A stretch of DNA of 16,000 bases, taken from NCBI GenBank assembly GCA_964471555.1, contig CAYYGM010000019.1, forward strand, positions 22,716-38,715, given 5' to 3'. Of the stretch, positions 18-15,028 are shown piece after piece. Made by a program: the position numbers and the translations under genes. The notes under the pieces are model-generated. The model did not search any database. It saw only the letters and a program-made list of their open reading frames with translations, and had not been told where the DNA came from. Position 1 is the first letter of the stretch. Each line of letters starts with the position of its first letter. Source of the DNA: an uncultured Phycisphaeraceae bacterium (lineage in GTDB: Bacteria; Planctomycetota; Phycisphaerae; Phycisphaerales; Phycisphaeraceae).

Positions 18-677
18 ATGAGTAAGAAACTGAAGTTCGTGGCGTTGACCGATGCCCTGGCTGGTTACGTGGATGCCCACCGGTCGAGTGCGGCCGATCC
101 GTTGCTGCAAAAGCTGCGCGAGGAGACGGCCCAACTGGAACACGGGCACATGCAGATCAGTGCCGATCAGGGCGATCTGCTGGCGATCCTGGTGGCGGCC
201 ACGGGTGCGAAAACCTGCGTGGAGATCGGCACCTTCACCGGCTACAGCTCCACCTGCGTGGCACGGGCGTTACCTTCAGGGGGAAAACTGCACTGCTTCG
301 ACATCAGCGCCCATTTCACGGACGTGGCTCGGCGCTACTGGAAAGAGGCGGGCGTGGCAGATCGCGTTGAGCTGCACCTGGGGCCGGCTATCGAGATGCT
401 GGCCAAACACTGTCCCGCCCGGGTGGATTTCGCCTTCATCGATGCCGACAAGACCGGCTACGACGCCTATTACGAGTTCCTCCTGCCGCGACTGCGGACC
501 AGCAGCCTGATGATCTTCGACAACATGCTCTCACACGGGCGGGTGGTTGACGAAGCCGAGCAGCACGAGAACGTCCGCGCCATTCGAGCGATGAACGACA
601 AGCTGGCGGCCGACCCGCGCGTGGAATGCGTGTTGCTGAGCGCGGCTGACGGCATGATGGTGGTGCGGAAGCGGTAA
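18..677 (+). CDS. Class I SAM-dependent O-methyltransferase (caffeoyl-CoA O-methyltransferase-like, family 3)
   Basis: 219-aa ORF with an ATG start. It has the SAM-binding motif VEIGTFTGYSS, the FIDADK motif and a typical family length. The TAA stop at 675-677 directly abuts the repeat element. Confidence 0.85.
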   Translation: MSKKLKFVALTDALAGYVDAHRSSAADPLLQKLREETAQLEHGHMQISADQGDLLAILVAATGAKTCVEIGTFTGYSSTCVARALPSGGKLHCFDISAHFTDVARRYWKEAGVADRVELHLGPAIEMLAKHCPARVDFAFIDADKTGYDAYYEFLLPRLRTSSLMIFDNMLSHGRVVDEAEQHENVRAIRAMNDKLAADPRVECVLLSAADGMMVVRKR

Positions 678-808
678 ATTCGAATGACGAAATTCGAATG
701 ACGAATCAATGTTCAAATGACGAATGACGAAAGCTCAAAAAGTTTCGTCATTTGAACATTCGAGCATTCGTCATTCATTCGTCATTCGAATTTCGTCATT
801 CGAATTTC
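678..808. repeat. Heptamer-array hairpin element, family 1 (AATGACG/AAATTCG units), copy 1
   Basis: The left arm is 678-733 and the right arm is 743-808. The outer ~29 bp pair perfectly (AATTCGAATGACGAAATTCGAATGACGAA with its complement). ATGACGA recurs at 684, 698, 717 and 724. Positions 683-731 are 47/49 identical to 14867-14915, and 777-808 are 32/32 identical to 14965-14996. Confidence 0.85.
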
Positions 809-1755: not shown

Positions 1756-1794
1756 GGCAGGCAGTAGGGAGTAGGCAGCAGGGTGTTGCGCTGT

Positions 1795-1823
1795 AGCGTA
1801 CCGCGCAGGTCCTGGTTGCGCAA
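1795..1823 (-). promoter_or_regulatory. Candidate sigma70-type promoter for the dehydrogenase gene (TTGCGC-N17-TACGCT)
   Basis: On the minus strand TTGCGC (1823-1818) is followed by a 17-nt spacer and TACGCT (1800-1795). It lies just downstream of the ferredoxin terminator. The call rests on sequence resemblance only. Confidence 0.3.
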
Positions 1824-1857
1824 AAGAAAAAAGCCGACCGCGTGTTGCGATCGGCTT
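1821..1857 (-). terminator. Rho-independent terminator of the ferredoxin gene
   Basis: The minus-strand RNA reads AAGCCGAUCGC-AACAC-GCGGUCGGCUU. This is an 11-bp stem with one G-U pair, followed by UUUUUUCUUUU. Confidence 0.8.
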
Positions 1858-1927
1858 CGTTGGTCAGTTTCATAGCAAGCAGGCCCGGGGCCGAAGCCCC
1901 TACTGCCTGCTGCCTACTCCCTACTGC

Positions 1928-2188
1928 CTACTTCTTGTAATACGCTGCGTTCTTCTCGATAAAGCTGGCCCATTCCGAGGGCAGGTCTTCTTCGGGGAAG
2001 ATGGCCTTGACCGGGCACTCATCGACGCACAGGCCGCAGTCGATGCAGGTCTCGGGATCGATGTACAGCATCTCGGAGCTTTCGTATTCCGCTTCGTCCT
2101 TGGTCGGGTGAATGCAATCCACCGGGCAGACGGCGACGCAGGCGGTGTCCTTGGTTCCAATGCACGGCTCGGCAATGATATGAGGCAT
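1928..2188 (-). CDS. fdxA: 7Fe ferredoxin ([3Fe-4S][4Fe-4S], FdxA type)
   Basis: 86-aa ORF. It carries the cluster motifs CIGTKDTACVAVCPVDCIH and CIDCGLCVDECP, as in actinobacterial/Thermus-type FdxA. An AGGAG ribosome-binding site lies 8 nt upstream of the ATG at 2188. Confidence 0.9.
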   Translation of the reverse strand: MPHIIAEPCIGTKDTACVAVCPVDCIHPTKDEAEYESSEMLYIDPETCIDCGLCVDECPVKAIFPEEDLPSEWASFIEKNAAYYKK

Positions 2189-5094: not shown

Positions 5095-8000
5095 ATGGCC
5101 GACAGTGCGTCCAACTCTTTTGTACACCTGCATTTACACACGCAATACTCCCTCCTCGACGGGGGCAATCGCATCGACCGTCTGATAGCCCGGGTCAAAG
5201 AACTGGGCATGGACGCGGTGGCGATGACCGACCACGGCAATCTGTTCGGCGCCGTGGAGTTTTACACCAAGGCCAAAGCCGCCCACGTCAAGCCGATCCT
5301 GGGCATCGAGGCTTACATCGCGCCCGATCTGGACGGCAAACCCTCCGATCGCACCAGCCGCGAGTACACCGGCGTGCAGGACGGCGGCTTCCACCTCGTG
5401 CTGCTGGCGGAGAACAACACCGGCTGGCGCAACCTGCTCAAGCTCTCCAGCGATTCCTACATCCACGGCTTCTACTACAAGCCGCGCATGGACAAGACCA
5501 CGCTCACCCAGTGGTCCGACGGCCTGATCGCCATCAACGGGCACCTCGGTTCGTCCATCGGCTACTACATGGTCAAGTTCGAGCAGTCCCGCGACCAGCG
5601 CCACTACGAAGCCGCCAAACGCGAGGCGCTCTGGCATGCCGAGGTCTTCAAGCCCAGCGAGAAAGGCGAGCCGCGCTTCTTCCTGGAACTGCAATCCCAC
5701 GAGGAGCAGTTGCAGGAGCAGATCAACCCGCACATCGTGCGCCTGGCCCGCGAGTTGAACCTGCCGCTGATCGCTGACAACGACGCCCACTTTCTGACGG
5801 CCGAGGACTATGACGCCCACGACACGCTCTGCTGCATCTCGATGGGCAAGATCAAGAGCGAGCAGAGCCGGCTGCACTATCCGCGCGATCTGTACGTCAA
5901 GCCCCCGGAAGTGATGCGCCGCCGTTTCTGTGATGAGTTGCAACTGCCCGAAGCGATCGACAACGCGGTGGCCGTGGCCGAGCGCTGCCACGTGGATCTG
6001 AAGTTCGGCGTCAGCCACGCCCCGGTGGTGCGCGTGGTCAAACACGAGGCCGACGACAATCTGAAGCAACTGCCCGAAGGTTCCACCGAGTGGTTCAAGG
6101 CTTTCTGCGCCCACTACGAGTTGCTGCCGGTTGACACGCACAAGCAGAAGGTGGACATCGCCCAGTTGAACAAGGCTTGCGATGCCGCCCTGCGCGATCT
6201 GTGCGAGGCGGGACTGATCTGGCGCTACGGCGCTTCCGGGACTTCCGGGGGCGGCGTCACCGACGACATCCGGGCCCGGCTCGAGCGCGAGTTGAAAGTG
6301 CTGGGCGATAAGTCCATCAGCGCCTACTTCCTGATCGTGTGGGACTTCGTCAACGAAGCCCGCCGCCGCGGCATCCCCGCCAACGCCCGCGGCTCCGGCG
6401 TCGGCACCATGGTCGGCTACTGCCTCGGTCTGTCCAACGCATGCCCCGTCAAGTACGGCCTGCTCTTCGAGCGATTCACCGATCCCGATCGCTCCGAGTA
6501 TCCCGACATCGACATCGACATGTGCCAGGACGGCCGCGGCGAGATCCTCCAGTACGTGCGCGACAAGTACGGCCACGTCGCCCAGATCATCACCTTCGGC
6601 ACGCTCAAAGCACGGGCGGCCATCCGCGACGTCGGCCGCGTGCTCGATGTGCCGCTGAGCGAAGTCGATCAACTGTGCAAGCTCGTCGGCGACGGCCTGG
6701 GCATGACCATCGACAAGGCCCTGGCCCAGGAGCCCAAGCTCGCCAAGCTCTACAAGGAATCGCAGCAGACCCGCCAACTGATCGACACCGCCCGCCAACT
6801 CGAAGGCATGACTCGTCATGCCGGCGTCCACGCGGCCGGCGTCGTCATCGCCACGCAACCGCTGGACAACCTGATCCCGCTCTACCAGCCGGCCGGCACC
6901 ACCCAACTGGTCACGCAGTGGGACGGCCCCACGGTGGAAAAAGTCGGCCTGCTCAAGATGGACTTCCTGGGCCTGCGCACGCTGTCAATCATCGAGCGAG
7001 CGCGGCAACTGATCCGCAAGACGCTCAGCGAAGAACAGATCCGCGCCGCGGTAGAATCGGGTATCGGGATTCGGGTATCGGGTATCGGGAAGACTTCCGA
7101 CAACGGTTCTACGACACCCGACACCCGACACCCGATACCCGATCACGATCCGCTCGACCTGGATCGCCTGACCTACGACGATCCCAGGGTGCTGGACCTG
7201 TTTGCCCGCGGCGAGACAGCCGGCGTGTTCCAGTTTGAATCCGGCGGCATGCGCAACACGCTGCTGGCCATGAAGCCCGACCGCTTCGAAGACCTGATCG
7301 CCGCCAACGCGCTGTTCCGGCCCGGGCCGATGGAGTTGATCCCCAACTACGCCAACCGCAAACACGGCCGCGAACAGGTGCCACGCGTGCACGAGGTAGT
7401 CGATCGCATCACCGCTGAGACCTACGGCATCATGGTCTACCAGGAACAGGTGATGCAGGTGCTCAACCAGCTTGGCGGTATTCCCCTGCGCGCTGCGTAC
7501 AGCATCATCAAGGCCATCAGCAAGAAAAAAGAGAAGACCATCAATGCCGCCCGCGAGGACTTCGTGGCCGGCGCCAGCCAGCGCGGCGTCAACAAGCGGC
7601 AGGCGGAGGAGATGTTCGAGCTGATCCTCAAGTTTGCAGGCTACGGCTTCAACAAGTCGCACTCCACCGGCTACGCCATCGTCGCTTACCAGACCGCATA
7701 CCTCAAGACCTATTTCCCCGTGCAGTACATGGCCGCGGTGCTCACCTACGAATCGGTCAGCACCGACAAGGTGGTCGAGTACATCGACGAATGCCGCCGC
7801 TGCCGCCTGCCTAACGGTGAACACGGCATCGAAGTGCGCCCGCCGGACATCAACCTGTCGGAGATTGCTTTCACCGTGGTCTATGACAAGGACGAGCCGC
7901 GCGATCCTTCGCATGGGCACATCCGTTTCGGGCTCAGTGCCGTCAAGGGCGTGGGTGAGAAGGCCATCAGCGCCATCATGCAGGAGCGCGAGAAGTCCGG

Positions 8001-9090
8001 GCCGTTCAAGGGCCTGTACGACTTCTGCGAGCGCGTGCCGCCGGGCACGGTGAATCGGGCCACGATTGAAGCCCTGATCAAATGCGGCGCCTTCGACAGC
8101 CTGCACGGCGTCGAGCAGCGCGCGGCCATGCTGGAGGCGCTGGACGCTGCGATTCAACTCGGCCAGCGCGCAGCCCGCGATCGCGCCAGCGGCCAGATGA
8201 ACTTCTTCAGCGCGGCGGCGGAGGCCGATTCATCGGCCGTCTCCTCCACCCCCGCCCCCGAGGCCATGTTGCCGCGCGTCGAGCCCTGGTCGCGCCAGCA
8301 GCAGCTCAAGCACGAAAAGGACGTGCTGGGTTTTTACATCTCCGCTCACCCGCTGGACGAGCATGCCGATCAGTTGGCCCGCTTCAGCAACGTGGCGGTC
8401 GCTGACATTCGCCGCCTGCCCGCCGACACGCCGGTGATCGTGGCCGGGATGATCAGTCGCCTGCGCCCCACGCGCACCAAGAAGGGCGACGCCATGGCCA
8501 TGCTCACGCTGGAAGACAAGACCGGCTCCATCGAGGCTGTCGCCTTCCCGCGCACCTTCGCTGTCTGCTCCGCGCTGTTGCAGCAGGACGCCATCGTTTA
8601 CCTGGAAGGCAAAGTCGATCGCCGCCGCGAGGAGCCCAACATCATCATCGATGCGGTGACGTCCATGGCCGAGGCCGAAGCGATGTACACCCGGGCGGTC
8701 AAGATCACCATGCACGATCCGTCACCTGCCGGCGCGGGCACTGTGTTCCAAAGTCGGTTGACGGACCTGAAGGAAGTGCTGCGTCAGGCCGGCCAGCGCC
8801 AGGCTCCGCGGCGAGCGGAGGTGATCTGCGAACTGCACCAGGCGGGCAAGGTGGTGACGCTGCGGCTCAACGGCCTGCGCGTGGCGGTGGACCAGCACCT
8901 GCTCAGCGGCGTGCGCGGCGTCCTGTCCCGCGCTGCCGGCGGACAGGTTGCCTGCGAGCCCATCGGCCCGCCGCGCCTGAACGTGCCCACTTCGCAGCCG
9001 GCCGATGACGACATGGACGAAGCCCCGCTGATCACCGTCGGCAGCGGACGCAGCGGCGGCGAAGTCTGCGCCAGCATCGACCGGTACTGA
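5095..9090 (+). CDS. dnaE: DNA polymerase III alpha subunit
   Basis: 1331-aa ORF. It has the PHP domain motif FVHLHLHTQYSLLDG, the conserved GETAGVFQFESGGM and ALFRPGP motifs, an OB fold and a C-terminal domain. A GGAGG lies 11 nt upstream of the ATG. Confidence 0.97.
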   Translation: MADSASNSFVHLHLHTQYSLLDGGNRIDRLIARVKELGMDAVAMTDHGNLFGAVEFYTKAKAAHVKPILGIEAYIAPDLDGKPSDRTSREYTGVQDGGFHLVLLAENNTGWRNLLKLSSDSYIHGFYYKPRMDKTTLTQWSDGLIAINGHLGSSIGYYMVKFEQSRDQRHYEAAKREALWHAEVFKPSEKGEPRFFLELQSHEEQLQEQINPHIVRLARELNLPLIADNDAHFLTAEDYDAHDTLCCISMGKIKSEQSRLHYPRDLYVKPPEVMRRRFCDELQLPEAIDNAVAVAERCHVDLKFGVSHAPVVRVVKHEADDNLKQLPEGSTEWFKAFCAHYELLPVDTHKQKVDIAQLNKACDAALRDLCEAGLIWRYGASGTSGGGVTDDIRARLERELKVLGDKSISAYFLIVWDFVNEARRRGIPANARGSGVGTMVGYCLGLSNACPVKYGLLFERFTDPDRSEYPDIDIDMCQDGRGEILQYVRDKYGHVAQIITFGTLKARAAIRDVGRVLDVPLSEVDQLCKLVGDGLGMTIDKALAQEPKLAKLYKESQQTRQLIDTARQLEGMTRHAGVHAAGVVIATQPLDNLIPLYQPAGTTQLVTQWDGPTVEKVGLLKMDFLGLRTLSIIERARQLIRKTLSEEQIRAAVESGIGIRVSGIGKTSDNGSTTPDTRHPIPDHDPLDLDRLTYDDPRVLDLFARGETAGVFQFESGGMRNTLLAMKPDRFEDLIAANALFRPGPMELIPNYANRKHGREQVPRVHEVVDRITAETYGIMVYQEQVMQVLNQLGGIPLRAAYSIIKAISKKKEKTINAAREDFVAGASQRGVNKRQAEEMFELILKFAGYGFNKSHSTGYAIVAYQTAYLKTYFPVQYMAAVLTYESVSTDKVVEYIDECRRCRLPNGEHGIEVRPPDINLSEIAFTVVYDKDEPRDPSHGHIRFGLSAVKGVGEKAISAIMQEREKSGPFKGLYDFCERVPPGTVNRATIEALIKCGAFDSLHGVEQRAAMLEALDAAIQLGQRAARDRASGQMNFFSAAAEADSSAVSSTPAPEAMLPRVEPWSRQQQLKHEKDVLGFYISAHPLDEHADQLARFSNVAVADIRRLPADTPVIVAGMISRLRPTRTKKGDAMAMLTLEDKTGSIEAVAFPRTFAVCSALLQQDAIVYLEGKVDRRREEPNIIIDAVTSMAEAEAMYTRAVKITMHDPSPAGAGTVFQSRLTDLKEVLRQAGQRQAPRRAEVICELHQAGKVVTLRLNGLRVAVDQHLLSGVRGVLSRAAGGQVACEPIGPPRLNVPTSQPADDDMDEAPLITVGSGRSGGEVCASIDRY
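7054..7146 (+). repeat. Heptamer-array hairpin, family 3 (NATCGGG / CACCCGA units), inserted in frame in dnaE
   Basis: TCGGG occurs at 7057, 7064, 7071, 7078 and 7085. CCCGA occurs at 7117, 7124, 7131 and 7138, with a strict 7-bp period. The spacer is 25 nt. Positions 7056-7068 are a perfect reverse complement of 7131-7143. The element encodes ESGIGIRVSGIGKTSDNGSTTPDTRHPIPDH. Confidence 0.85.
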
Positions 9091-9305: not shown

Positions 9306-9653
9306 ATGTCATCCGGTTTCACCTGCATTCACTGTCGCCAGCCGGTGGACGGCCGCTCGTTCGGCACCCGGCATCGCAATCACTGTCCCTATTGCCTGTG
9401 GTCGCGCCACGTGGACGTCCAGCCCGGCGATCGCCAATGCGCCTGCCGCGCCCCGATGCGCCCGATCGGCATCGAGGTGCGCGATGCTGCAACCTCCGGC
9501 GGGGGCGAATGGGCCATCATCCATCGCTGCACCGGCTGCGGCGCCATCAAGGTCAACCGCATTGCCGGCGACGACCGCGAGCTGGCCCTGCTGCAACTGG
9601 TGCTGCGTCCGCTGGCCAATCCGCCGTTCCCGCTGGATCATTTGCCCAGTTGA
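9306..9653 (+). CDS. RNHCP domain-containing protein (Cys-rich, function unknown)
   Basis: I placed the start at the ATG at 9306. The literal motif TRHRNHCPYCLWSRH is present, along with additional CxxC pairs (CIHC, CTGC). The upstream part of the tracked ORF (9237-9305) looks non-coding. Confidence 0.8.
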   Translation: MSSGFTCIHCRQPVDGRSFGTRHRNHCPYCLWSRHVDVQPGDRQCACRAPMRPIGIEVRDAATSGGGEWAIIHRCTGCGAIKVNRIAGDDRELALLQLVLRPLANPPFPLDHLPS

Positions 9654-9748
9654 TGTCTGATGTGTGATTGCTGATCTCTGATGTGAGAACCGCAACTCAT
9701 CCCTGCCTTTTTACATCAGCAATCAGCCATCAGCGATCAGACATCATC
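9651..9748. repeat. Heptamer-array hairpin, family 4 (TGATSTS / NATCAGC units), between convergent genes
   Basis: TGA occurs at 9651, 9658, 9665, 9672 and 9679. TCA occurs at 9716, 9723, 9730, 9737 and 9744, with a strict 7-bp period and 5 units per arm. Positions 9651-9661 are a perfect complement of 9736-9746. About 29 of 36 arm positions can pair, and the loop is about 25 nt. Both flanking stop codons lie inside the arms. Confidence 0.8.
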
Positions 9749-9949
9749 TTCCACCCGGGCAATCGCCTTGCGGTCCCTGTCATAGATGTACAGCTTGCCC
9801 GGTTCAGCTTCATGCGAGCGGCAGAGCTTGTGCGAGCCGTCGCAGAGGGGCAGTTTCTGGCTCAGGCCGCAGCCGCAGATCCAGGCGCTTTTTTCCTGGG
9901 GCTTGATCTCGTAAGGTCCAAGCTGATCGTGTCGCACCATTCTGGCCAT
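9737..9949 (-). CDS. CDGSH iron-sulfur domain protein (mitoNEET-like [2Fe-2S])
   Basis: I placed the start at the ATG at 9949, which has an AAGGAG 7 nt upstream. The 70-aa product contains CGCGLSQKLPLCDGSHK. Confidence 0.8.
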   Translation of the reverse strand: MARMVRHDQLGPYEIKPQEKSAWICGCGLSQKLPLCDGSHKLCRSHEAEPGKLYIYDRDRKAIARVEDDV

Positions 9950-10001: not shown

Positions 10002-11207
10002 ATGTCCGTGCTGGCGTCAACGCGCTATGGGCGGCGGGCGTTGTTCGCGGCCCTGTATTTTTCGGAAGGCGCGCCCATTGGTTTTCTGTGGTGGGCGCTG
10101 CCGGTGCTGCTGCGCCGTCACGACATGCCGGTGCAGGTGATCGGCTCGACGCTGGCCATGCTGGCGCTGCCGTGGACGATCAAGTTCCTGTGGGCGCCGA
10201 TGGTCGATCGCCTGCGCGGCCGGCAATGGGGGCATCGGGCCTGGATCGTCAGCGCCCAATTGCTGATGGGTCTGACGCTGCTGCCGTTGGTCTGGCTGGA
10301 TCCGGCCCGGGACTTCGGCGTCGTGTGGTGGCTGTTGCTGGCTCACGCCCTGGCCGCCACCACGCAGGACGTGGCCATCGACGCCTGGGCCATTCATCTG
10401 ACCCAGCGTGATGAGCGGGCCGGCCTCAGCGGTTTCATGCAGGCGGGCATGCTCAGCGGGCGCTGGCTGTTCGGCGCGGGTCTGCTGTTGTTGCGGGGCA
10501 CACTGCCGCAGGCGCTGGTGATCGGACTGCTGGTGGCAGCCGTGTGGTGCACGACGTTGCTGGTGCTGATCGCCGGACCGGGCCGGGCAAGCCGGGATCA
10601 ACCGATGGGCAAATTCTGGCCTGTGATCAAACAGGTGCTGAGTCGGCGCAACACATGGTTGGGGATGGCTCTTGCCTTGCTGGCGGGGGCGGCCTTCGAA
10701 TCGACGGCTGGTATGGCGGGCGTGCTGCTGACGGACATGGGCTTCAGTGAAACCCAGAGCGGCGCCTACTTCACCGCTCGCGTCGTGGCCATGCTCAGCG
10801 GGTCGCTGGCCGGTGGATTGTTATTCGATCGCCTGTCACGGCGAATATCGGTAGGCGGCTCGATCGTGTACGTGGCACTGGCTGTCGGCGCGGTGGCGGG
10901 TTGCACCGCACTGGACCTGCCGCGCGGAGCGTACGTGGCCCTGGTGGCGATGGACCTGGGCATCGGGCTGCTGACTGCCTCGTCGTATGCCCTGTGGATG
11001 GACCTGACCGACGACCGCATCGGCGGCACGCAGTTCAGCGCTTACATGGGTGCGACCAACGCCTGTGAAGTGTGGGCCATCTTTCTCGTGGGACAACTGG
11101 CGGCCGGCTATGGTTACGCGGCGGCGTTCAGTGTGATGGCGCTGTTGAGTCTGCTGGCGCTGCCGGTGCTGGGGATGATTAGCGAAGGCGAAGCTCAGTC
11201 ATCGTAG
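10002..11207 (+). CDS. AmpG-like MFS permease (PAT family)
   Basis: 401-aa polytopic membrane protein. It carries the family signature LPWTIKFLWAPMVDR after the first TM pair, preceded by LYFSEGAPIGF. Confidence 0.8.
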   Translation: MSVLASTRYGRRALFAALYFSEGAPIGFLWWALPVLLRRHDMPVQVIGSTLAMLALPWTIKFLWAPMVDRLRGRQWGHRAWIVSAQLLMGLTLLPLVWLDPARDFGVVWWLLLAHALAATTQDVAIDAWAIHLTQRDERAGLSGFMQAGMLSGRWLFGAGLLLLRGTLPQALVIGLLVAAVWCTTLLVLIAGPGRASRDQPMGKFWPVIKQVLSRRNTWLGMALALLAGAAFESTAGMAGVLLTDMGFSETQSGAYFTARVVAMLSGSLAGGLLFDRLSRRISVGGSIVYVALAVGAVAGCTALDLPRGAYVALVAMDLGIGLLTASSYALWMDLTDDRIGGTQFSAYMGATNACEVWAIFLVGQLAAGYGYAAAFSVMALLSLLALPVLGMISEGEAQSS

Positions 11208-12385
11208 TTGCCGAACTCCAGAGCCGCGGCATACATGGCAGCCAGGTTTTCCTCGGGCACCAGCGGCGGCAGATTGTGGGCTTCGCGCAACACGAAACGT
11301 TTGCCCGCCATCACGCCGCTTTGCAGGATCTGCCGCGAGCGCTCGAACACCTGCTCAGGCGAACCCTTGAGCAGCAGCGGCACCGGGGGCCCGCCCTGGA
11401 TCATGACGTCCTCACCCAGCTTTCGCCGCAGGTCGCCGTGGTCCACGGGGAAGCCGGTGTCGAAGACGGTGATGTTGATCTCCTCGTGCATGGCGGGGAA
11501 CAGGTGCGTGGCGTTGCCGCACATGTGCAGGGCACGCTCGCTGTCGGGCGCTGCGCCGCAGCCGTCGGTTTCCTGGATGCGATACAGACGGTCGTGGTGC
11601 GGCTTGACCAGCGTGCGCCATTGCTCAACACCCAGCATGGCGCAGGCGTCGTCGGCGATGTGATGATGCGGCGGGCGGACGATGGCGCCGTCGAACGCTT
11701 TCAGCAAGGCGCGGCGGCGATGAGCGACCGAATCGACCACGAAGGCCATCAGCTTCTGTGCATACTCCGGCTCCGTGAGCAGGTCCATGAGGAAAGTCGG
11801 ACCGCGCAGGTTGCAGCCGATGGTGACCGGCCCGTCCGTGCCCAGATAGCTGACCGGCAGCAGCTTGACCGGCCGACCCTCGAATGTCATGCCGTCAGCC
11901 AGCTTCTTCATGTCGCGCCACATGCGCAGTTGATGTTTCCAGTAAGGCGTTTCCAGCGGGTGCTCGATATCGACGTCGAACACCTCGTTTCGCCGATCGT
12001 CGTCGGCGAAAGGCGGCGGCTCGGTGGTCGGCACCTGGTCCGGGGGGAAGCACACCTGGCCCCCAAACGCGGCCGCCTCGTACACGTTGTGCAGGTACAG
12101 CGGAACTTCCCAAACGTCCGGCAATTCGTGCGGCCAATCCGAATGTCTGCTGATCACCTGCCGGTTGAACAGCAGGTGCTGAAGTTCCATCTTCAGATGG
12201 GCCCTGGGATCGTGGTAGCAATCCTCGAAGCTGTATCCGTCGGGATTCCAATCCGGCAGAACCATCACCACGCGCACGTTGGTCTTGATGAACATGGGCA
12301 CGCGCGTGTGCCTGCCTTCGCGGTAGGCCCGCCACAAGGCAGCCTTTTCCTGATCGCTGATGATCGGATGTTCGAGCAGGGGCAT
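11195..12385 (-). CDS. Uroporphyrinogen decarboxylase (URO-D) superfamily protein, MtaA/CmuA-like, paralog 1
   Basis: 396-aa ORF. It has the LHMCGNATHLFP (H-x-C) motif and the C-terminal pattern GKRFVLREAHNLPPLVPEENLAAMYAAALEFG typical of URO-D-fold enzymes. It is about 70% identical to the adjacent paralog. Confidence 0.75.
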   Translation of the reverse strand: MPLLEHPIISDQEKAALWRAYREGRHTRVPMFIKTNVRVVMVLPDWNPDGYSFEDCYHDPRAHLKMELQHLLFNRQVISRHSDWPHELPDVWEVPLYLHNVYEAAAFGGQVCFPPDQVPTTEPPPFADDDRRNEVFDVDIEHPLETPYWKHQLRMWRDMKKLADGMTFEGRPVKLLPVSYLGTDGPVTIGCNLRGPTFLMDLLTEPEYAQKLMAFVVDSVAHRRRALLKAFDGAIVRPPHHHIADDACAMLGVEQWRTLVKPHHDRLYRIQETDGCGAAPDSERALHMCGNATHLFPAMHEEINITVFDTGFPVDHGDLRRKLGEDVMIQGGPPVPLLLKGSPEQVFERSRQILQSGVMAGKRFVLREAHNLPPLVPEENLAAMYAAALEFGNYDD

Positions 12386-12524: not shown

Positions 12525-13721
12525 TCAAGGCTGATCGTAATTCCCGTATTCCAGGCACGCGGCATACATGGCGGCCAGGTTCTCCTCGGGCACCAGCGGC
12601 GGCAGGTTGTTGCCCTCGCGCAGGGTGAAGTAGCCGCCATCCATGACGCCGCTCTGGAGGATTTCGCGTGTGCGCTCGAAGACCTGTTCGGTTGTGCCGT
12701 TGAGCAGCACCTGCACCTGCGGGCCGCCCTGGATTTCCACCTCGGGGCCGAGCTTGCGCCGCATGGCCCCGTGATCGATGGGGAAGCCGGTGTCGAAGAG
12801 GGTGACGTTCAGTTCTTCGTGCAGTGCGGGGAACAGATGCGAGGCGTTGCCGCACATGTGCATGCCGCGGCGGGCCCGGGGATTGGTGGAGCCGAAGCCG
12901 TCGGTCTCCAGCATGCGGTAGAGGCGTTCGTGATGAGGCTTGACCAGCGTGCGCCACTGTTCAAGTCCGAGCATGGCGCAGGAGTCGTCGGCGATGCCGT
13001 GGTGCGGGGCGCGCAGGATGTTGCCGTCGAACTCTTCCATCAGGGCGCGGCGGCGATAAGACAACGCATCCACCACGAAGCTCATCAGTTTCTGGGCGTA
13101 CTCCGGCTCGGTCAGCAGGTCCATGAGGAAATTGGTGCCGCGCAGGTTGCAGCCGGCGGTGACCGGGCCGTCGGTGCCCATGTTGCCGATCGGCATCACC
13201 CGGACCGGCCGACCCTCGAAGGTCATGTCCGCGGCCAGCTTCACCATCTCCCGCCACATGCGCAGTTGATGTTTCCAGTAGGGCGAATCCAACGGGTGCT
13301 CAATATCGACCTCGAACACCTCGTGACGCAGATCGTCGTCGGCGAAAGGCGGCGGCTCGGTGGTCGGCACCTGGCCCGATGGGAAGCACACCGTGGCCCC
13401 GAAGGCTGCCGCCTCGTAGATGTTGTGAAAAAACAGCGGCACCTCCCACACGTCGGGCAATTCGTGCGGCAGATCGCTGTGCTTGCCGATCACCCGCCGA
13501 CGGTACAGCGCCATCTGAAGCTCCATCTTCAGATGAATCAGCGGATCGTTGTGGCAATCCTCGAACGTGTAGCCGTCCGGGTTCCACTGCGGCAGCGGCA
13601 TCACCACGCGCACGGTGGTGCCGATCGTCACCGGCACGCGCCGGCCGCGGCCCTCGGCGTGGGCTTGCCACAGGGCGAGTTTTTCCTGGTCGCTGATGAC
13701 GGGATGTTCGAGCAATTGCAT
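12525..13721 (-). CDS. Uroporphyrinogen decarboxylase (URO-D) superfamily protein, MtaA/CmuA-like, paralog 2
   Basis: 398-aa ORF with the same motifs (MHMCGNASHLFP; YFTLREGNNLPPLVPEENLAAMYAACLEYG). A GGAG lies 8 nt upstream of the ATG at 13721. Confidence 0.75.
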   Translation of the reverse strand: MQLLEHPVISDQEKLALWQAHAEGRGRRVPVTIGTTVRVVMPLPQWNPDGYTFEDCHNDPLIHLKMELQMALYRRRVIGKHSDLPHELPDVWEVPLFFHNIYEAAAFGATVCFPSGQVPTTEPPPFADDDLRHEVFEVDIEHPLDSPYWKHQLRMWREMVKLAADMTFEGRPVRVMPIGNMGTDGPVTAGCNLRGTNFLMDLLTEPEYAQKLMSFVVDALSYRRRALMEEFDGNILRAPHHGIADDSCAMLGLEQWRTLVKPHHERLYRMLETDGFGSTNPRARRGMHMCGNASHLFPALHEELNVTLFDTGFPIDHGAMRRKLGPEVEIQGGPQVQVLLNGTTEQVFERTREILQSGVMDGGYFTLREGNNLPPLVPEENLAAMYAACLEYGNYDQP

Positions 13722-14852: not shown

Positions 14853-14860
14853 GGGGGGTA

Positions 14861-15028
14861 ATGATGAATGACGAAATTCGAATGACGAAACAATGTTCGA
14901 ATGACGAATGACGAATGACGAAGTGTAACAGTTTCGCCAATCGGACATTCGTCATTGGAATTTAATTCGTCATTCGAATTTCGTCATTCGAATTTCCGCT
15001 CCAGCGGTTGTCGTCATTCGAATTTCCC
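14861..15028. repeat. Heptamer-array hairpin element, family 1, copy 2, plus an extra solo unit
   Basis: The left arm is 14861-14922 and the right arm is 14946-14997. ATGACGA recurs at 14868, 14882, 14901, 14908 and 14915. The element is homologous to 678-808 (see that feature). The solo unit TCGTCATTCGAATTTCC at 15011-15027 duplicates 14981-14997. Confidence 0.85.

What the first reader, a model, noticed from the sequence alone, without database searches (positions are those of the whole stretch)
7054..7146. Heptamer-array hairpin inserted in frame in the essential dnaE gene
A 93-nt segment interrupts dnaE without breaking the frame. It consists of five NATCGGG units, a 25-nt spacer and four CACCCGA units. 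It encodes ESGIGIRVSGIGKTSDNGSTTPDTRHPIPDH. The insertion sits in the short variable linker just upstream of the conserved LD..L..DDP...L...GET.GVFQ.ES block, which in E. coli is only ...NGEPPLDIAAIPLDDKK.... Unlike the intergenic families, these units contain no stop triplet in any plus-strand frame, which is what a coding-tolerated element would need. The situation parallels Rickettsia palindromic elements, which insert in frame into protein genes. The three identical CACCCGA units and two identical TATCGGG units are slippage-prone. A +/-7 nt slip would frameshift an essential gene, so persistence of the array is itself notable.
Basis: partly seen in the sequence, partly recalled or inferred. 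Interest (0 to 1): 0.85.

Follow-up and report, generated by a model that had tools for sequence, protein, structure and literature searches.

The report
Heptamer-repeat hairpin inside the dnaE gene
A 93-base palindrome built from 7-base repeats sits in frame in a floppy loop of the main replication polymerase of a planctomycete. Related bacteria carry similar repeat-hairpins at the same spot and at one other, and one close relative has lost it, so it looks like a tolerated, come-and-go repeat element of the kind known from Rickettsia and Xanthomonas rather than a one-off oddity.

Summary
Window 7054-7146 is an in-frame 93-nt imperfect palindrome inside an intact dnaE: five GGGTATC-type heptamers, a 25-nt loop and four complementary heptamers (RNA fold -61 kcal/mol, z = -7.8).

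It is not private to this genome. In Phycisphaeraceae DnaE genes that are 60-76% identical, the same inter-domain linker carries heptamer-array hairpins of at least five unit families. A second linker near residue 318 does so too.

- Elements at different sites share aperiodic detail, so copies are related.
- A 94%-identical relative lacks the insert, so it is dispensable.
- The peptide is not conserved between families and is predicted disordered.
- In-frame stops are specifically mutated away, so the element is translated and tolerated.

Best reading: a copy of a dispersed, heptamer-periodic palindromic repeat family. It behaves like REP or Rickettsia palindromic elements, and its architecture matches the inverted GGGNATC heptamer arrays of Xanthomonas. 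It is lodged in a permissive loop.

Two points remain unexplained. Within the sampled loci, dnaE is the only gene with internal copies. The arms are far better conserved than synonymous sites.

Verdict: new variant of a known kind, moderately interesting.

The parts
5095..9090 (+). dnaE (DNA polymerase III alpha), 1331 aa, intact host gene
   Evidence: ORF listed. Pfam domains PHP, DNA_pol3_alpha (residues 365-626), finger (residues 685-830), HHH_6 and OB. GC3 is 0.86. The 120 best homologues are all full-length DnaE.
7054..7146 (+). In-frame heptamer-array hairpin element (31 codons, residues 654-684)
   Evidence: It lies between the Pfam palm and finger domains. Thermus aquaticus Pol III alpha has only about 4 residues here. 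AlphaFold2 gives pLDDT below 50 for residues 658-677 and no secondary structure for 658-688.
7055..7089 (+). Left arm: five heptamers of GGGTATC type (AATCGGG TATCGGG ATTCGGG TATCGGG TATCGGG). This is the G-rich strand, with G3 tracts spaced by 4 nt.
   Evidence: The unit matches the GGGNATC type described for Xanthomonas and Nostoc (PMC4692102).
7090..7114 (+). 25-nt loop or spacer (AAGACTTCCGACAACGGTTCTACGA, peptide KTSDNGST). It contains its own small stem.
   Evidence: The loop is homologous to that of L161 (peptide QTSDNGSTT) and resembles the loop of L025 and the short linker of L170.
7115..7142 (+). Right arm: CACCCGA x3 then TACCCGA, complementary to the left arm with one A.C mismatch per CACCCGA unit on the sense strand.
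   Evidence: The antisense fold is more stable than the sense fold (-66.2 against -55.3 kcal/mol).
673..808 (.). Intergenic hairpin of the same class (GAATGAC/GAATTTC units), lying between convergent genes and abutting both stop codons.
   Evidence: It is 90% identical over 59 nt to the copy at 14857 (D5). It aligns with the dnaE-resident element of L163.
1759..1932 (.). Inverted heptamer arrays (AGGCAGT / CCTACTG) flanking a 123-nt spacer.
   Evidence: (I14, 24 nt, 100% complementary). The spacer holds an intrinsic terminator on the minus strand at 1858-1830.
9648..9749 (.). Intergenic heptamer-array hairpin (TGATGTC / CATCAGC) that starts in the stop codon of the RNHCP-domain gene.
   Evidence: (I4).
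14857..14996 (.). Second copy of the GAATGAC/GAATTTC hairpin, between two minus-strand genes.
   Evidence: (D4, D5, I11-I13).

Best explanation
The 93 nt are one copy of a family of small palindromic repeats whose arms are tandem 7-nt arrays. These elements are common in Phycisphaeraceae genomes: there are five in this 16-kb window. Most copies lie just beyond stop codons.

This copy sits in the short linker between the palm and finger domains of Pol III alpha, and the protein tolerates it there. It is transcribed and translated as a roughly 31-residue disordered surface loop.

Selection acts mainly as a filter. The total length must be a multiple of three and there must be no in-frame stop.

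The hairpin character is kept by two processes: copying or conversion from related elements, and slippage combined with templating of one arm on the other. Selection on the peptide plays no part. The element can be lost again without harm.

Shown here: the structure, in-frame translation constraints, homologous elements at the same site in relatives, the same families at other sites, a presence/absence polymorphism, and disorder of the loop.

Inferred: the spreading mechanism (transposition, template switching or gene conversion) and near-neutrality.
For: 1. The structure is real and far beyond chance.

2. It belongs to a class. In 1.9 Mb of related loci, period-7 arrays form inverted pairs 25 times, against 1-4 times for periods 6, 8 and 9 (one search agrees).

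3. The same dnaE linker holds hairpins in relatives, with fold energies of -46 to -77 kcal/mol:
- L161, L162, L164, L165 and L081: GGGTATC units.
- L167: GGGTCTG units.
- L166: a mix of unit types.
- L168: GGGATCA units.
- L025: GGATCGC/GGATGGC units.
- L163: GAATGAC/GAATTTC units.

4. Copies at non-homologous places are related:
- L025 at site 1 and L166/L164 at site 2 show 79% mean column identity over about 95 nt, loop start included.
- The dnaE element of L163 aligns with the window's two intergenic copies.
- The two dnaE elements of L168 share the aperiodic 18-mer GGGACCGGGGATCAGGGA.
- A hairpin of the window's type is intergenic in L171.

5. It is dispensable. P0128/L170 is 94% identical to P0057/L162 outside a single 29-residue gap at the insert. 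It keeps only a vestige, TCGGTCGG followed by GGAAAA. Its nearest relatives all carry the hairpin, so loss is the parsimonious reading.

6. It sits in a permissive loop. It falls between Pfam domains, Taq has about 4 residues here, and AlphaFold2 gives pLDDT below 50 with no secondary structure.

7. It is translated and filtered. 19 of 26 arms examined use stop-free units. In the other 7, the real sequence departs from the consensus exactly where an in-frame stop would arise.

8. The peptides differ completely between families: SGIGIRVSGIGK, KGLGSGASGLAGEK, NDEARMTNDE and MADRGSRIVDGK.

9. There are precedents:
- Intragenic REP and RPE elements, including one in Rickettsia conorii dnaE (PMC3733652).
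- 70-75 convergent pairs of GGGAATC heptamer arrays per Xanthomonas genome (PMC4692102).
Against: - No transposase, target-site duplication or conserved terminus was identified, so mobility is inferred from sequence relatedness only.
- The window's own unit (ATCGGGT) occurs nowhere else in the 16 kb, and the rest of the genome could not be searched.
- Arm sequences are 71-95% identical between species whose four-fold degenerate sites are only 38-68% identical. A purely neutral passenger does not explain this without continuing homogenisation or constraint on the unit.
- Every hairpin lying well inside a coding sequence in the sampled loci is in dnaE. None lies well inside a neighbouring called gene: the copies outside dnaE are intergenic or overlap gene ends. 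This hints at something specific to dnaE.
- Heptamer arrays with different units at orthologous positions suggest some in-situ turnover: downstream of the ferredoxin gene in the window, L161 and L164, and mixed units within one arm in L166.
Confidence: 0.58

Rival explanations
1. The hairpin is a functional cis-acting nucleic-acid structure of dnaE. It could be an mRNA or single-stranded DNA stem (or a G-quadruplex/hairpin switch) placed at domain boundaries. It would pause ribosomes for co-translational folding, tune dnaE expression or mRNA decay, or mark the gene during replication.
For: - Two separate inter-domain linkers of dnaE carry such hairpins in several lineages: site 1, and site 2 near residue 318 in L164, L166, L168, L169 and L081.
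- No internal hairpin was found in the neighbouring coding sequence of the same loci.
- The arms are much better conserved than synonymous sites.
- Four of the 25 predicted base pairs show compensatory changes.
- The left arm matches a G3N4 quadruplex motif of the kind shown to fold in vitro (PMC4692102).
Against: - It was lost in a 94%-identical relative and is absent from many relatives scattered through the tree.
- The unit families at the site differ and match intergenic elements.
- Mismatches on the sense strand are mostly A.C rather than G.U. The antisense fold is the more stable in 13 of 17 dnaE hairpins, which is not what selection on the mRNA stem predicts.
- There is no Rfam match.
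- The apparent enrichment in dnaE rests on loci that were chosen through dnaE.
Confidence: 0.2
2. The hairpin was generated on the spot and is not a mobile or copied element. Polymerase slippage expanded a 7-nt seed, and template switching within the nascent hairpin copied the units onto the other arm. The stem therefore grew outward around the original short linker.
For: - Heptamers are the most over-represented long simple-sequence repeats in bacteria, and slippage has been proposed as the cause (PMC4679880; PMC4692102).
- In L166 the units next to the loop are the older GGGTGTC type and the outer units are a new type, GGGTCTA.
- The loops of the window, L161 and L025 resemble the short linker GKSKDDNA of L170.
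- Orthologous intergenic positions carry arrays with different units.
Against: Elements at non-homologous sites share loops and aperiodic irregularities that independent growth would not reproduce. The window's two intergenic copies are 90% identical over 59 nt.
Confidence: 0.14
3. The insert is selected at the protein level, as a flexible linker or an interaction motif of Pol III alpha.
For: Long linkers at this position are frequent in the family (58-99 residues between KMDFLGL and FQFES). Within the GGGTATC group the peptide SGIGxRVSGIGK...PDTRxPIPD recurs.
Against: - That recurrence follows from conservation of the nucleotide unit read in all three frames.
- Other families encode unrelated peptides.
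- The segment is predicted disordered.
- Many relatives, including a 94%-identical one, have only a short linker.
Confidence: 0.05
4. It is an assembly artefact, or this dnaE copy is decaying.
For: The window comes from a draft contig (42 kb). The rest of the genome could not be inspected.
Against: Independent assemblies from JGI, ENA and NCBI carry comparable hairpins at the same codon position. The ORF is intact, with all domains and strong codon bias.
Confidence: 0.03

Closest known systems
Rickettsia palindromic elements (RPE) and intragenic REP elements (GTAG/CGTC-tagged REPs; Di Nocera et al. 2013, PMC3733652)
   Same: - Small palindromic repeats found mostly downstream of genes.
- Their ends often supply stop codons.
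- Some copies lie in frame inside functional genes and encode 20-30 extra residues.
- Such intragenic copies are notably frequent in replication and repair genes, including dnaE of R. conorii and dnaE2 elsewhere.
   Different: - There is no sequence similarity.
- The arms here are tandem heptamer arrays rather than a unique stem with a GTAG or CGTC tag.
- No RAYT-type transposase link was examined.
- The host is a different phylum (Planctomycetota).
- Several unit families occupy the same two dnaE linkers.
G-rich heptameric simple-sequence repeats of type GGGNATC in Xanthomonas and Nostoc (Rehm et al. 2015, PMC4692102)
   Same: - The unit type is the same: GGGTATC fits GGGNATC.
- Arrays have about four to five units.
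- Convergent inverted pairs able to form stem-loops are frequent (70-75 per Xanthomonas genome).
- They are placed within about 50 nt of stop codons.
- Position is conserved between species while length and sequence vary.
- A few copies are intragenic, for example in rnhB, and one pair abuts dnaE1.
   Different: - Those repeats are described as under-represented in coding regions, and coding copies were not analysed.
- Here the pair is translated inside an essential gene and recurs at the same codon position across genera.
- Other families in this window (GAATGAC, AGGCAGT, TGATGTC) have no G-tracts, so quadruplex formation cannot be the common denominator.
Heptamer direct repeats of Beggiatoaceae, cyanobacteria and Bacteroidetes (TAACTGA; MacGregor 2015, PMC4679880) and cyanobacterial STRR heptamers
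   Same: Tandem 7-nt arrays, mainly intergenic and close to gene ends. Stop codons within the unit limit overlap with coding sequence.
   Different: Those are almost all direct arrays (169 direct sets, 1 inverted set) of one fixed unit. They contain stop codons and lie upstream of start codons. They are not hairpins and are not translated.
Bacterial MITEs that fuse with or insert into ORFs (Correia/NEMIS, ERIC, Nezha)
   Same: Short non-coding repeats that fold into strong hairpins, are co-transcribed with genes and are sometimes in frame.
   Different: MITEs have defined terminal inverted repeats and target-site duplications and are derived from an insertion sequence. None of these features was seen here, and the periodic arm structure is absent from MITEs.

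Membership tests
Rickettsia palindromic elements (RPE) | Palindromic sequence predicted to form a stable hairpin | tested here: met
   RNA fold -61.3 kcal/mol with z = -7.8, and DNA fold z = -7.2.
Rickettsia palindromic elements (RPE) | In-frame insertion in a gene that stays functional, at a surface or non-structured position | tested here: met
   31 whole codons in an intact dnaE. AlphaFold2 pLDDT below 50 for residues 658-677. Relatives have short linkers.
Rickettsia palindromic elements (RPE) | Many dispersed copies of one consensus within a genome, in genes and between genes | tested here: inconclusive
   The same families occur at different sites and an intergenic copy of the window's type exists in L171. 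However, the window's own genome could only be seen over 16 kb, where the ATCGGGT unit occurs once.
Rickettsia palindromic elements (RPE) | Sequence homology to RPE-1 to RPE-8 consensus; Rickettsia host | tested here: not met
   The host is Phycisphaeraceae. The arms are heptamer arrays with no resemblance to RPE. This makes it an analogue, not a member.
REP / REPIN (GTAG- or CGTC-tagged) | Short (20-40 bp) stem-loop with a conserved unpaired GTAG or CGTC tag at one end | tested here: not met
   GTAG happens to precede the window copy (7050-7053) but is absent from L161, L162 and the others. The stems are about 32 nt of periodic units.
REP / REPIN (GTAG- or CGTC-tagged) | Association with a RAYT (TnpA-REP) transposase gene | not testable with these tools
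   No whole genome was available, and no such gene is present in the window.
GGGNATC-type heptameric G-rich repeats (Xanthomonas/Nostoc) | Tandem heptamers with a G3 tract fitting GGGNATC, two or more units | tested here: met
   GGGTATC/GGGATTC units, 5 in the left arm, with their complement x4 in the right arm.
GGGNATC-type heptameric G-rich repeats (Xanthomonas/Nostoc) | Frequent convergent (inverted) pairs | tested here: met
   Arms 88% complementary. 25 period-7 inverted pairs in related loci.
GGGNATC-type heptameric G-rich repeats (Xanthomonas/Nostoc) | Intergenic location close to stop codons; under-represented in coding sequence | tested here: not met
   This copy is 653 codons into dnaE. 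The window's other four hairpins do fit this location.
GGGNATC-type heptameric G-rich repeats (Xanthomonas/Nostoc) | G-quadruplex formation by the G-rich strand | not testable with these tools
   Only the motif can be checked: five G3 tracts with 4-nt loops. The competing hairpin is very stable.
MITE | Terminal inverted repeats of an insertion-sequence family plus a target-site duplication | tested here: not met
   No duplication or distinct termini were visible when the filled site (L162) was compared with the empty site (L170).

The most novel reading that the evidence does not exclude
Heptamer-array palindromes would be a distinct class of spreading DNA element with a real preference for, or a function in, the replicative polymerase gene. 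They repeatedly occupy the two inter-domain linkers of dnaE and are kept at the nucleotide level, perhaps on the template strand. They could act as a structure-based pause or regulatory signal, or as a target for hairpin-directed insertion at replication-associated single-stranded DNA. This would give a mechanistic handle on the old, unexplained observation that intragenic palindromic repeats cluster in replication and repair genes.
Probability: 0.18. Interest if true: 0.8.

Novelty: new variant of a known kind. Interest (0 to 1): 0.6.

Why it matters
- It extends in-frame "selfish" palindromes, so far best known from Rickettsia, to free-living Planctomycetota.
- It links two literatures that have been separate: heptamer simple-sequence repeats (Xanthomonas, cyanobacteria) and REP/RPE-type palindromic elements.
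- The dnaE linker offers a natural series: filled sites, an empty site, decayed sites, and sites with swapped unit families. From this series the birth, turnover and loss of such elements can be reconstructed.
- It re-raises, with independent data, the question of why replication and repair genes are favoured hosts.
- Practically, these inserts inflate and de-align DnaE in phylogenomic marker sets, and they create spurious small ORFs.

Tried and rejected
- **Peptide search in the 5.8-billion-protein index.** A 50-aa idealised translation returned only seven tiny spurious ORFs over similar arrays, for example in Moorena, and not even the known DnaE copies. It therefore says nothing about other host genes.
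- **phmmer of the 31-aa peptide against 1.84 billion representatives.** No hit at E <= 0.001. The query is too short and low in complexity, so this negative is uninformative.
- **Looking up the window's own contig through its DnaE.** Not on record, so the rest of the genome could not be searched.
- **Rfam.** No family anywhere in the window.
- **Intrinsic terminator reading.** Rejected for the dnaE copy, because no T-run follows it.
- **Programmed frameshift or intein.** Rejected, because the frame is continuous and the flanks align directly with relatives.
- **Covariation as proof of a selected RNA.** Only 4 of 25 pairs show double changes. The rest are simply conserved, and the repeated units are not independent data points.
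- **GTAG tag.** It is present only in the window copy, so it is treated as coincidence.
Full report
**Observation**

Window 7054-7146 lies inside ORF 5095..9090(+). This ORF encodes a 1331-aa DNA polymerase III alpha subunit with PHP, DNA_pol3_alpha, finger, HHH and OB domains and strong codon bias (GC3 0.86).

The 93 nt are codon-aligned and encode ESGIGIRVSGIGKTSDNGSTTPDTRHPIPDH. They consist of:
- five heptamers, AATCGGG TATCGGG ATTCGGG TATCGGG TATCGGG;
- a 25-nt spacer;
- CACCCGA x3 followed by TACCCGA.

Tandem Repeats Finder reports both arrays with period 7, and the arms are 88% complementary. The segment folds at -61.3 kcal/mol as RNA (z = -7.8, 0 of 200 shuffles as good) and with z = -7.2 as DNA. 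The two-unit pattern occurs 6 times against 0.15 expected, only here.

**Context in the window**

The window has 63% G+C and holds four more hairpins whose arms are heptamer arrays, each with another unit:
- 673-808 and 14857-14996: GAATGAC/GAATTTC units;
- 1759-1932: AGGCAGT units;
- 9648-9749: TGATGTC units.

All four lie between genes and touch or include stop codons. The two GAATGAC copies are 90% identical over 59 nt, including non-periodic stretches (D5). Their units contain stop triplets, whereas those of the dnaE copy do not. Rfam recognises nothing in the window.

**Who carries it**

The nearest DnaE sequences are from Phycisphaeraceae and Phycisphaerales (Planctomycetota), at 60-76% identity.

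The segment between the motifs KMDFLGL and FQFES varies from 58 to 99 residues among the 120 best homologues. Phycisphaerales without an insert have about 20 linker residues, other planctomycetes about 4-5, and Thermus aquaticus Pol III alpha about 4 (residues 638-643).

Many long linkers show a 7-residue periodicity, which is the signature of three heptamers read in three frames. Runs of at least 4 matches at lag 7 occur 13 times in the 120 proteins, against 0-2 at other lags. They fall at two places only: this linker and a second one near residue 318.

**DNA of relatives**

I fetched the genes of twelve relatives. At the same codon position they carry hairpins of -46 to -77 kcal/mol:
- L161 (76% identical protein, homologous loop), L162, L164, L165 and L081: GGGTATC-type units.
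- L167: GGGTCTG.
- L166: GGGTCTA grading into GGGTGTC.
- L168: GGGATCA.
- L025: GGATCGC/GGATGGC.
- L163: GAATGAC/GAATTTC, which is the window's intergenic family.
- L082, L083, L086 and L169: half-decayed arrays.

The second linker carries hairpins in L164, L166, L168, L169 and L081. L101 has one near residue 200.

Period 7 is special. In 1.9 Mb of loci, period-7 arrays form 25 inverted pairs, against 1-4 for periods 6, 8 and 9 (stricter scan).

**Copies are related across sites**

- The site-1 element of L025 aligns with the site-2 elements of L166 and L164 at 79% mean column identity over about 95 nt, including the loop start GGATGGAAAA.
- The two dnaE elements of L168 share an aperiodic 18-mer.
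- The dnaE element of L163 shares the alternating GAATGAC/GAATTTC pattern with the window's intergenic copies.
- A GGGTGTC/GACACCC hairpin of the window's type sits downstream of a sugar-transferase gene in an unrelated 57% G+C contig (L171).

These facts argue for copying of whole elements or arms between loci, not only for local slippage.

**Gain and loss**

In a neighbour-joining tree of the 120 proteins, hairpin-bearing and short-linker sequences are interleaved.

The clearest case is P0128/L170. It is 94% identical to P0057/L162 outside one 29-residue gap that removes the insert. Its DNA retains TCGGTCGG followed by GGAAAA, which is what a slippage collapse of the left array would leave. 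Because L162, L164 and L165 all have the hairpin with homologous loops, loss in L170 is the parsimonious reading. The insert is therefore dispensable.

**Protein level**

The insert falls between the Pfam palm domain (which ends at residue 626) and the finger domain (which starts at residue 685). An AlphaFold2 model of residues 1-1190 has mean pLDDT 82. It gives pLDDT below 50 for residues 658-677 and no secondary structure from 658 to 688, between two confident helices.

The peptides encoded by the different families are unrelated. Translation does constrain the DNA. 19 of 26 arms examined use units without stops, and in the other 7 arms the real sequence departs from the unit consensus exactly where an in-frame stop would fall. 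Examples are GAATGAC changed to GAAGCAC in L163, and GGGTCTA changed to GGGTCTC in L166.

**Nucleotide level**

In an alignment of nine site-1 elements (A1), RNAalifold predicts 25 pairs. Most are invariant and 4 show compensatory double changes.

Arm identity between species is 0.71-0.95 for most pairs (0.52-0.77 for comparisons involving L168), while four-fold degenerate third positions of the same genes are only 0.38-0.68 identical. The unit is thus held constant, or re-homogenised, far beyond neutral expectation, although repeated units are not independent observations.

Mismatches on the sense strand are mostly A.C, which corresponds to G.U on the antisense strand. The antisense fold is the more stable in 13 of 17 dnaE hairpins. 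This does not favour selection for the mRNA stem.

**Interpretation**

The best-supported reading (confidence about 0.58) is a copy of a dispersed, heptamer-periodic palindromic repeat family lodged in a permissive inter-domain loop. It is translated, it is filtered only for frame and stops, and it is able to disappear again.

Rivals:
- A functional structure specific to dnaE (0.2). This is favoured by the two dnaE hot spots, by the absence of internal copies from the neighbouring called genes, and by the conservation of the arms. It is disfavoured by the loss in L170, the patchy distribution and the family swaps.
- Purely local genesis by slippage and template switching (0.14).
- A protein-level role (0.05).
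- Artefact or pseudogene (0.03).

The dnaE enrichment must be read with care, because every locus was retrieved through dnaE and related lineages are not independent.

**Comparison with what is known**

Palindromic repeats translated in frame are known from Rickettsia (RPE). REPs are also found inside genes, and many of those lie in replication and repair genes, including R. conorii dnaE and dnaE2 of other species. The authors judged that clustering unlikely to be fortuitous (PMC3733652).

Inverted pairs of GGGAATC heptamer arrays (70-75 per genome), placed next to stop codons and positionally conserved between species, are described for Xanthomonas. Related GGGGAYT arrays occur in Nostoc, and G-quadruplex formation was shown in vitro (PMC4692102). 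Heptamers are the most over-represented long simple repeats in bacteria, possibly through polymerase slippage (PMC4679880).

The present element works like an RPE or REP and has the architecture of the Xanthomonas pairs. It fails the defining sequence features of RPE, REP and MITE families. No paper in the searched library describes heptamer repeats in Phycisphaerae.

**Verdict**

This is a real feature. It is ordinary in kind (a tolerated repeat element) but unusual in three respects: its form, its recurrent occupation of two linkers of the replicative polymerase, and the well-resolved series of filled, empty and swapped states. I rate it a new variant of a known kind, with interest 0.6.

Noticed in passing
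relatives: L164:9898-9993, L166:10903-10994, L168:10971-11076, L169:11003-11139, L081:5398-5480 (equivalent to window DnaE residue ~318, window ~6031-6078): A second inter-domain linker of dnaE, between the PHP and palm domains, carries heptamer-array hairpins in several relatives, again with different units. The window itself has only a 16-residue linker there.
   Followed up: partly
window 1759-1932, with the terminator at 1858-1830 (minus strand): Inverted heptamer arrays flank a canonical intrinsic terminator (12-bp stem plus T-run) downstream of the ferredoxin gene. The orthologous position in L161 (81-116) and L164 (1581-1612) also has heptamer arrays, but with other units (CCCTAAC, AGCTAAA).
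   Followed up: partly
window 673-808 and 14857-14996: Two copies of one about 135-nt GAATGAC/GAATTTC palindromic element lie 14 kb apart. Their arms are about 90% identical but their loops are unrelated. Both begin right after GGTAA.
   Followed up: partly
L170:254-500 compared with L162:4358-4690: Presence/absence polymorphism of the dnaE hairpin between DnaE proteins that are 94% identical. The empty site keeps the vestige TCGGTCGGAAAA.
   Followed up: yes
17 dnaE hairpins in the window and in L025, L081, L101 and L161-L169: The reverse-complement strand folds more stably than the coding strand in 13 of 17 cases. Sense-strand mismatches are A.C, which are G.U on the antisense strand. This may reflect mutation bias, or maintenance on the template strand.
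   Followed up: partly
window 11195-12385 and 12525-13721 (minus strand): Two tandem paralogous URO-D-family (uroporphyrinogen decarboxylase-like) genes, 77-85% identical at the DNA level over long stretches.
   Followed up: no
window 9648-9653: The TGA stop of the RNHCP-domain gene is the first TGA of the TGATGTC heptamer array. The repeat therefore supplies the stop codon, as described for REPs.
   Followed up: no
L018:3881-3979 and L004:7864-7947: The same dnaE linker holds an 8-nt tandem array (AGCGACGG x4, no inverted partner) in L018 and a perfect 10-bp palindrome (GCCGAGGGAT cgtc ATCCCTCGGC) in L004. The linker therefore attracts other repeat and hairpin types too.
   Followed up: no
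L002:9958-10043: A 12-unit heptamer array shifts from GAATGAC to GAATGGC within one tract. This is an example of unit turnover that links two of the families.
   Followed up: no
L171:6012-6160; proteins P0121-P0127: Hairpins and arrays of the GGGTRTC/GAYACCC type occur intergenically in unrelated metagenomic contigs and in Moorena. They are mis-called there as 47-79-aa hypothetical proteins.
   Followed up: partly
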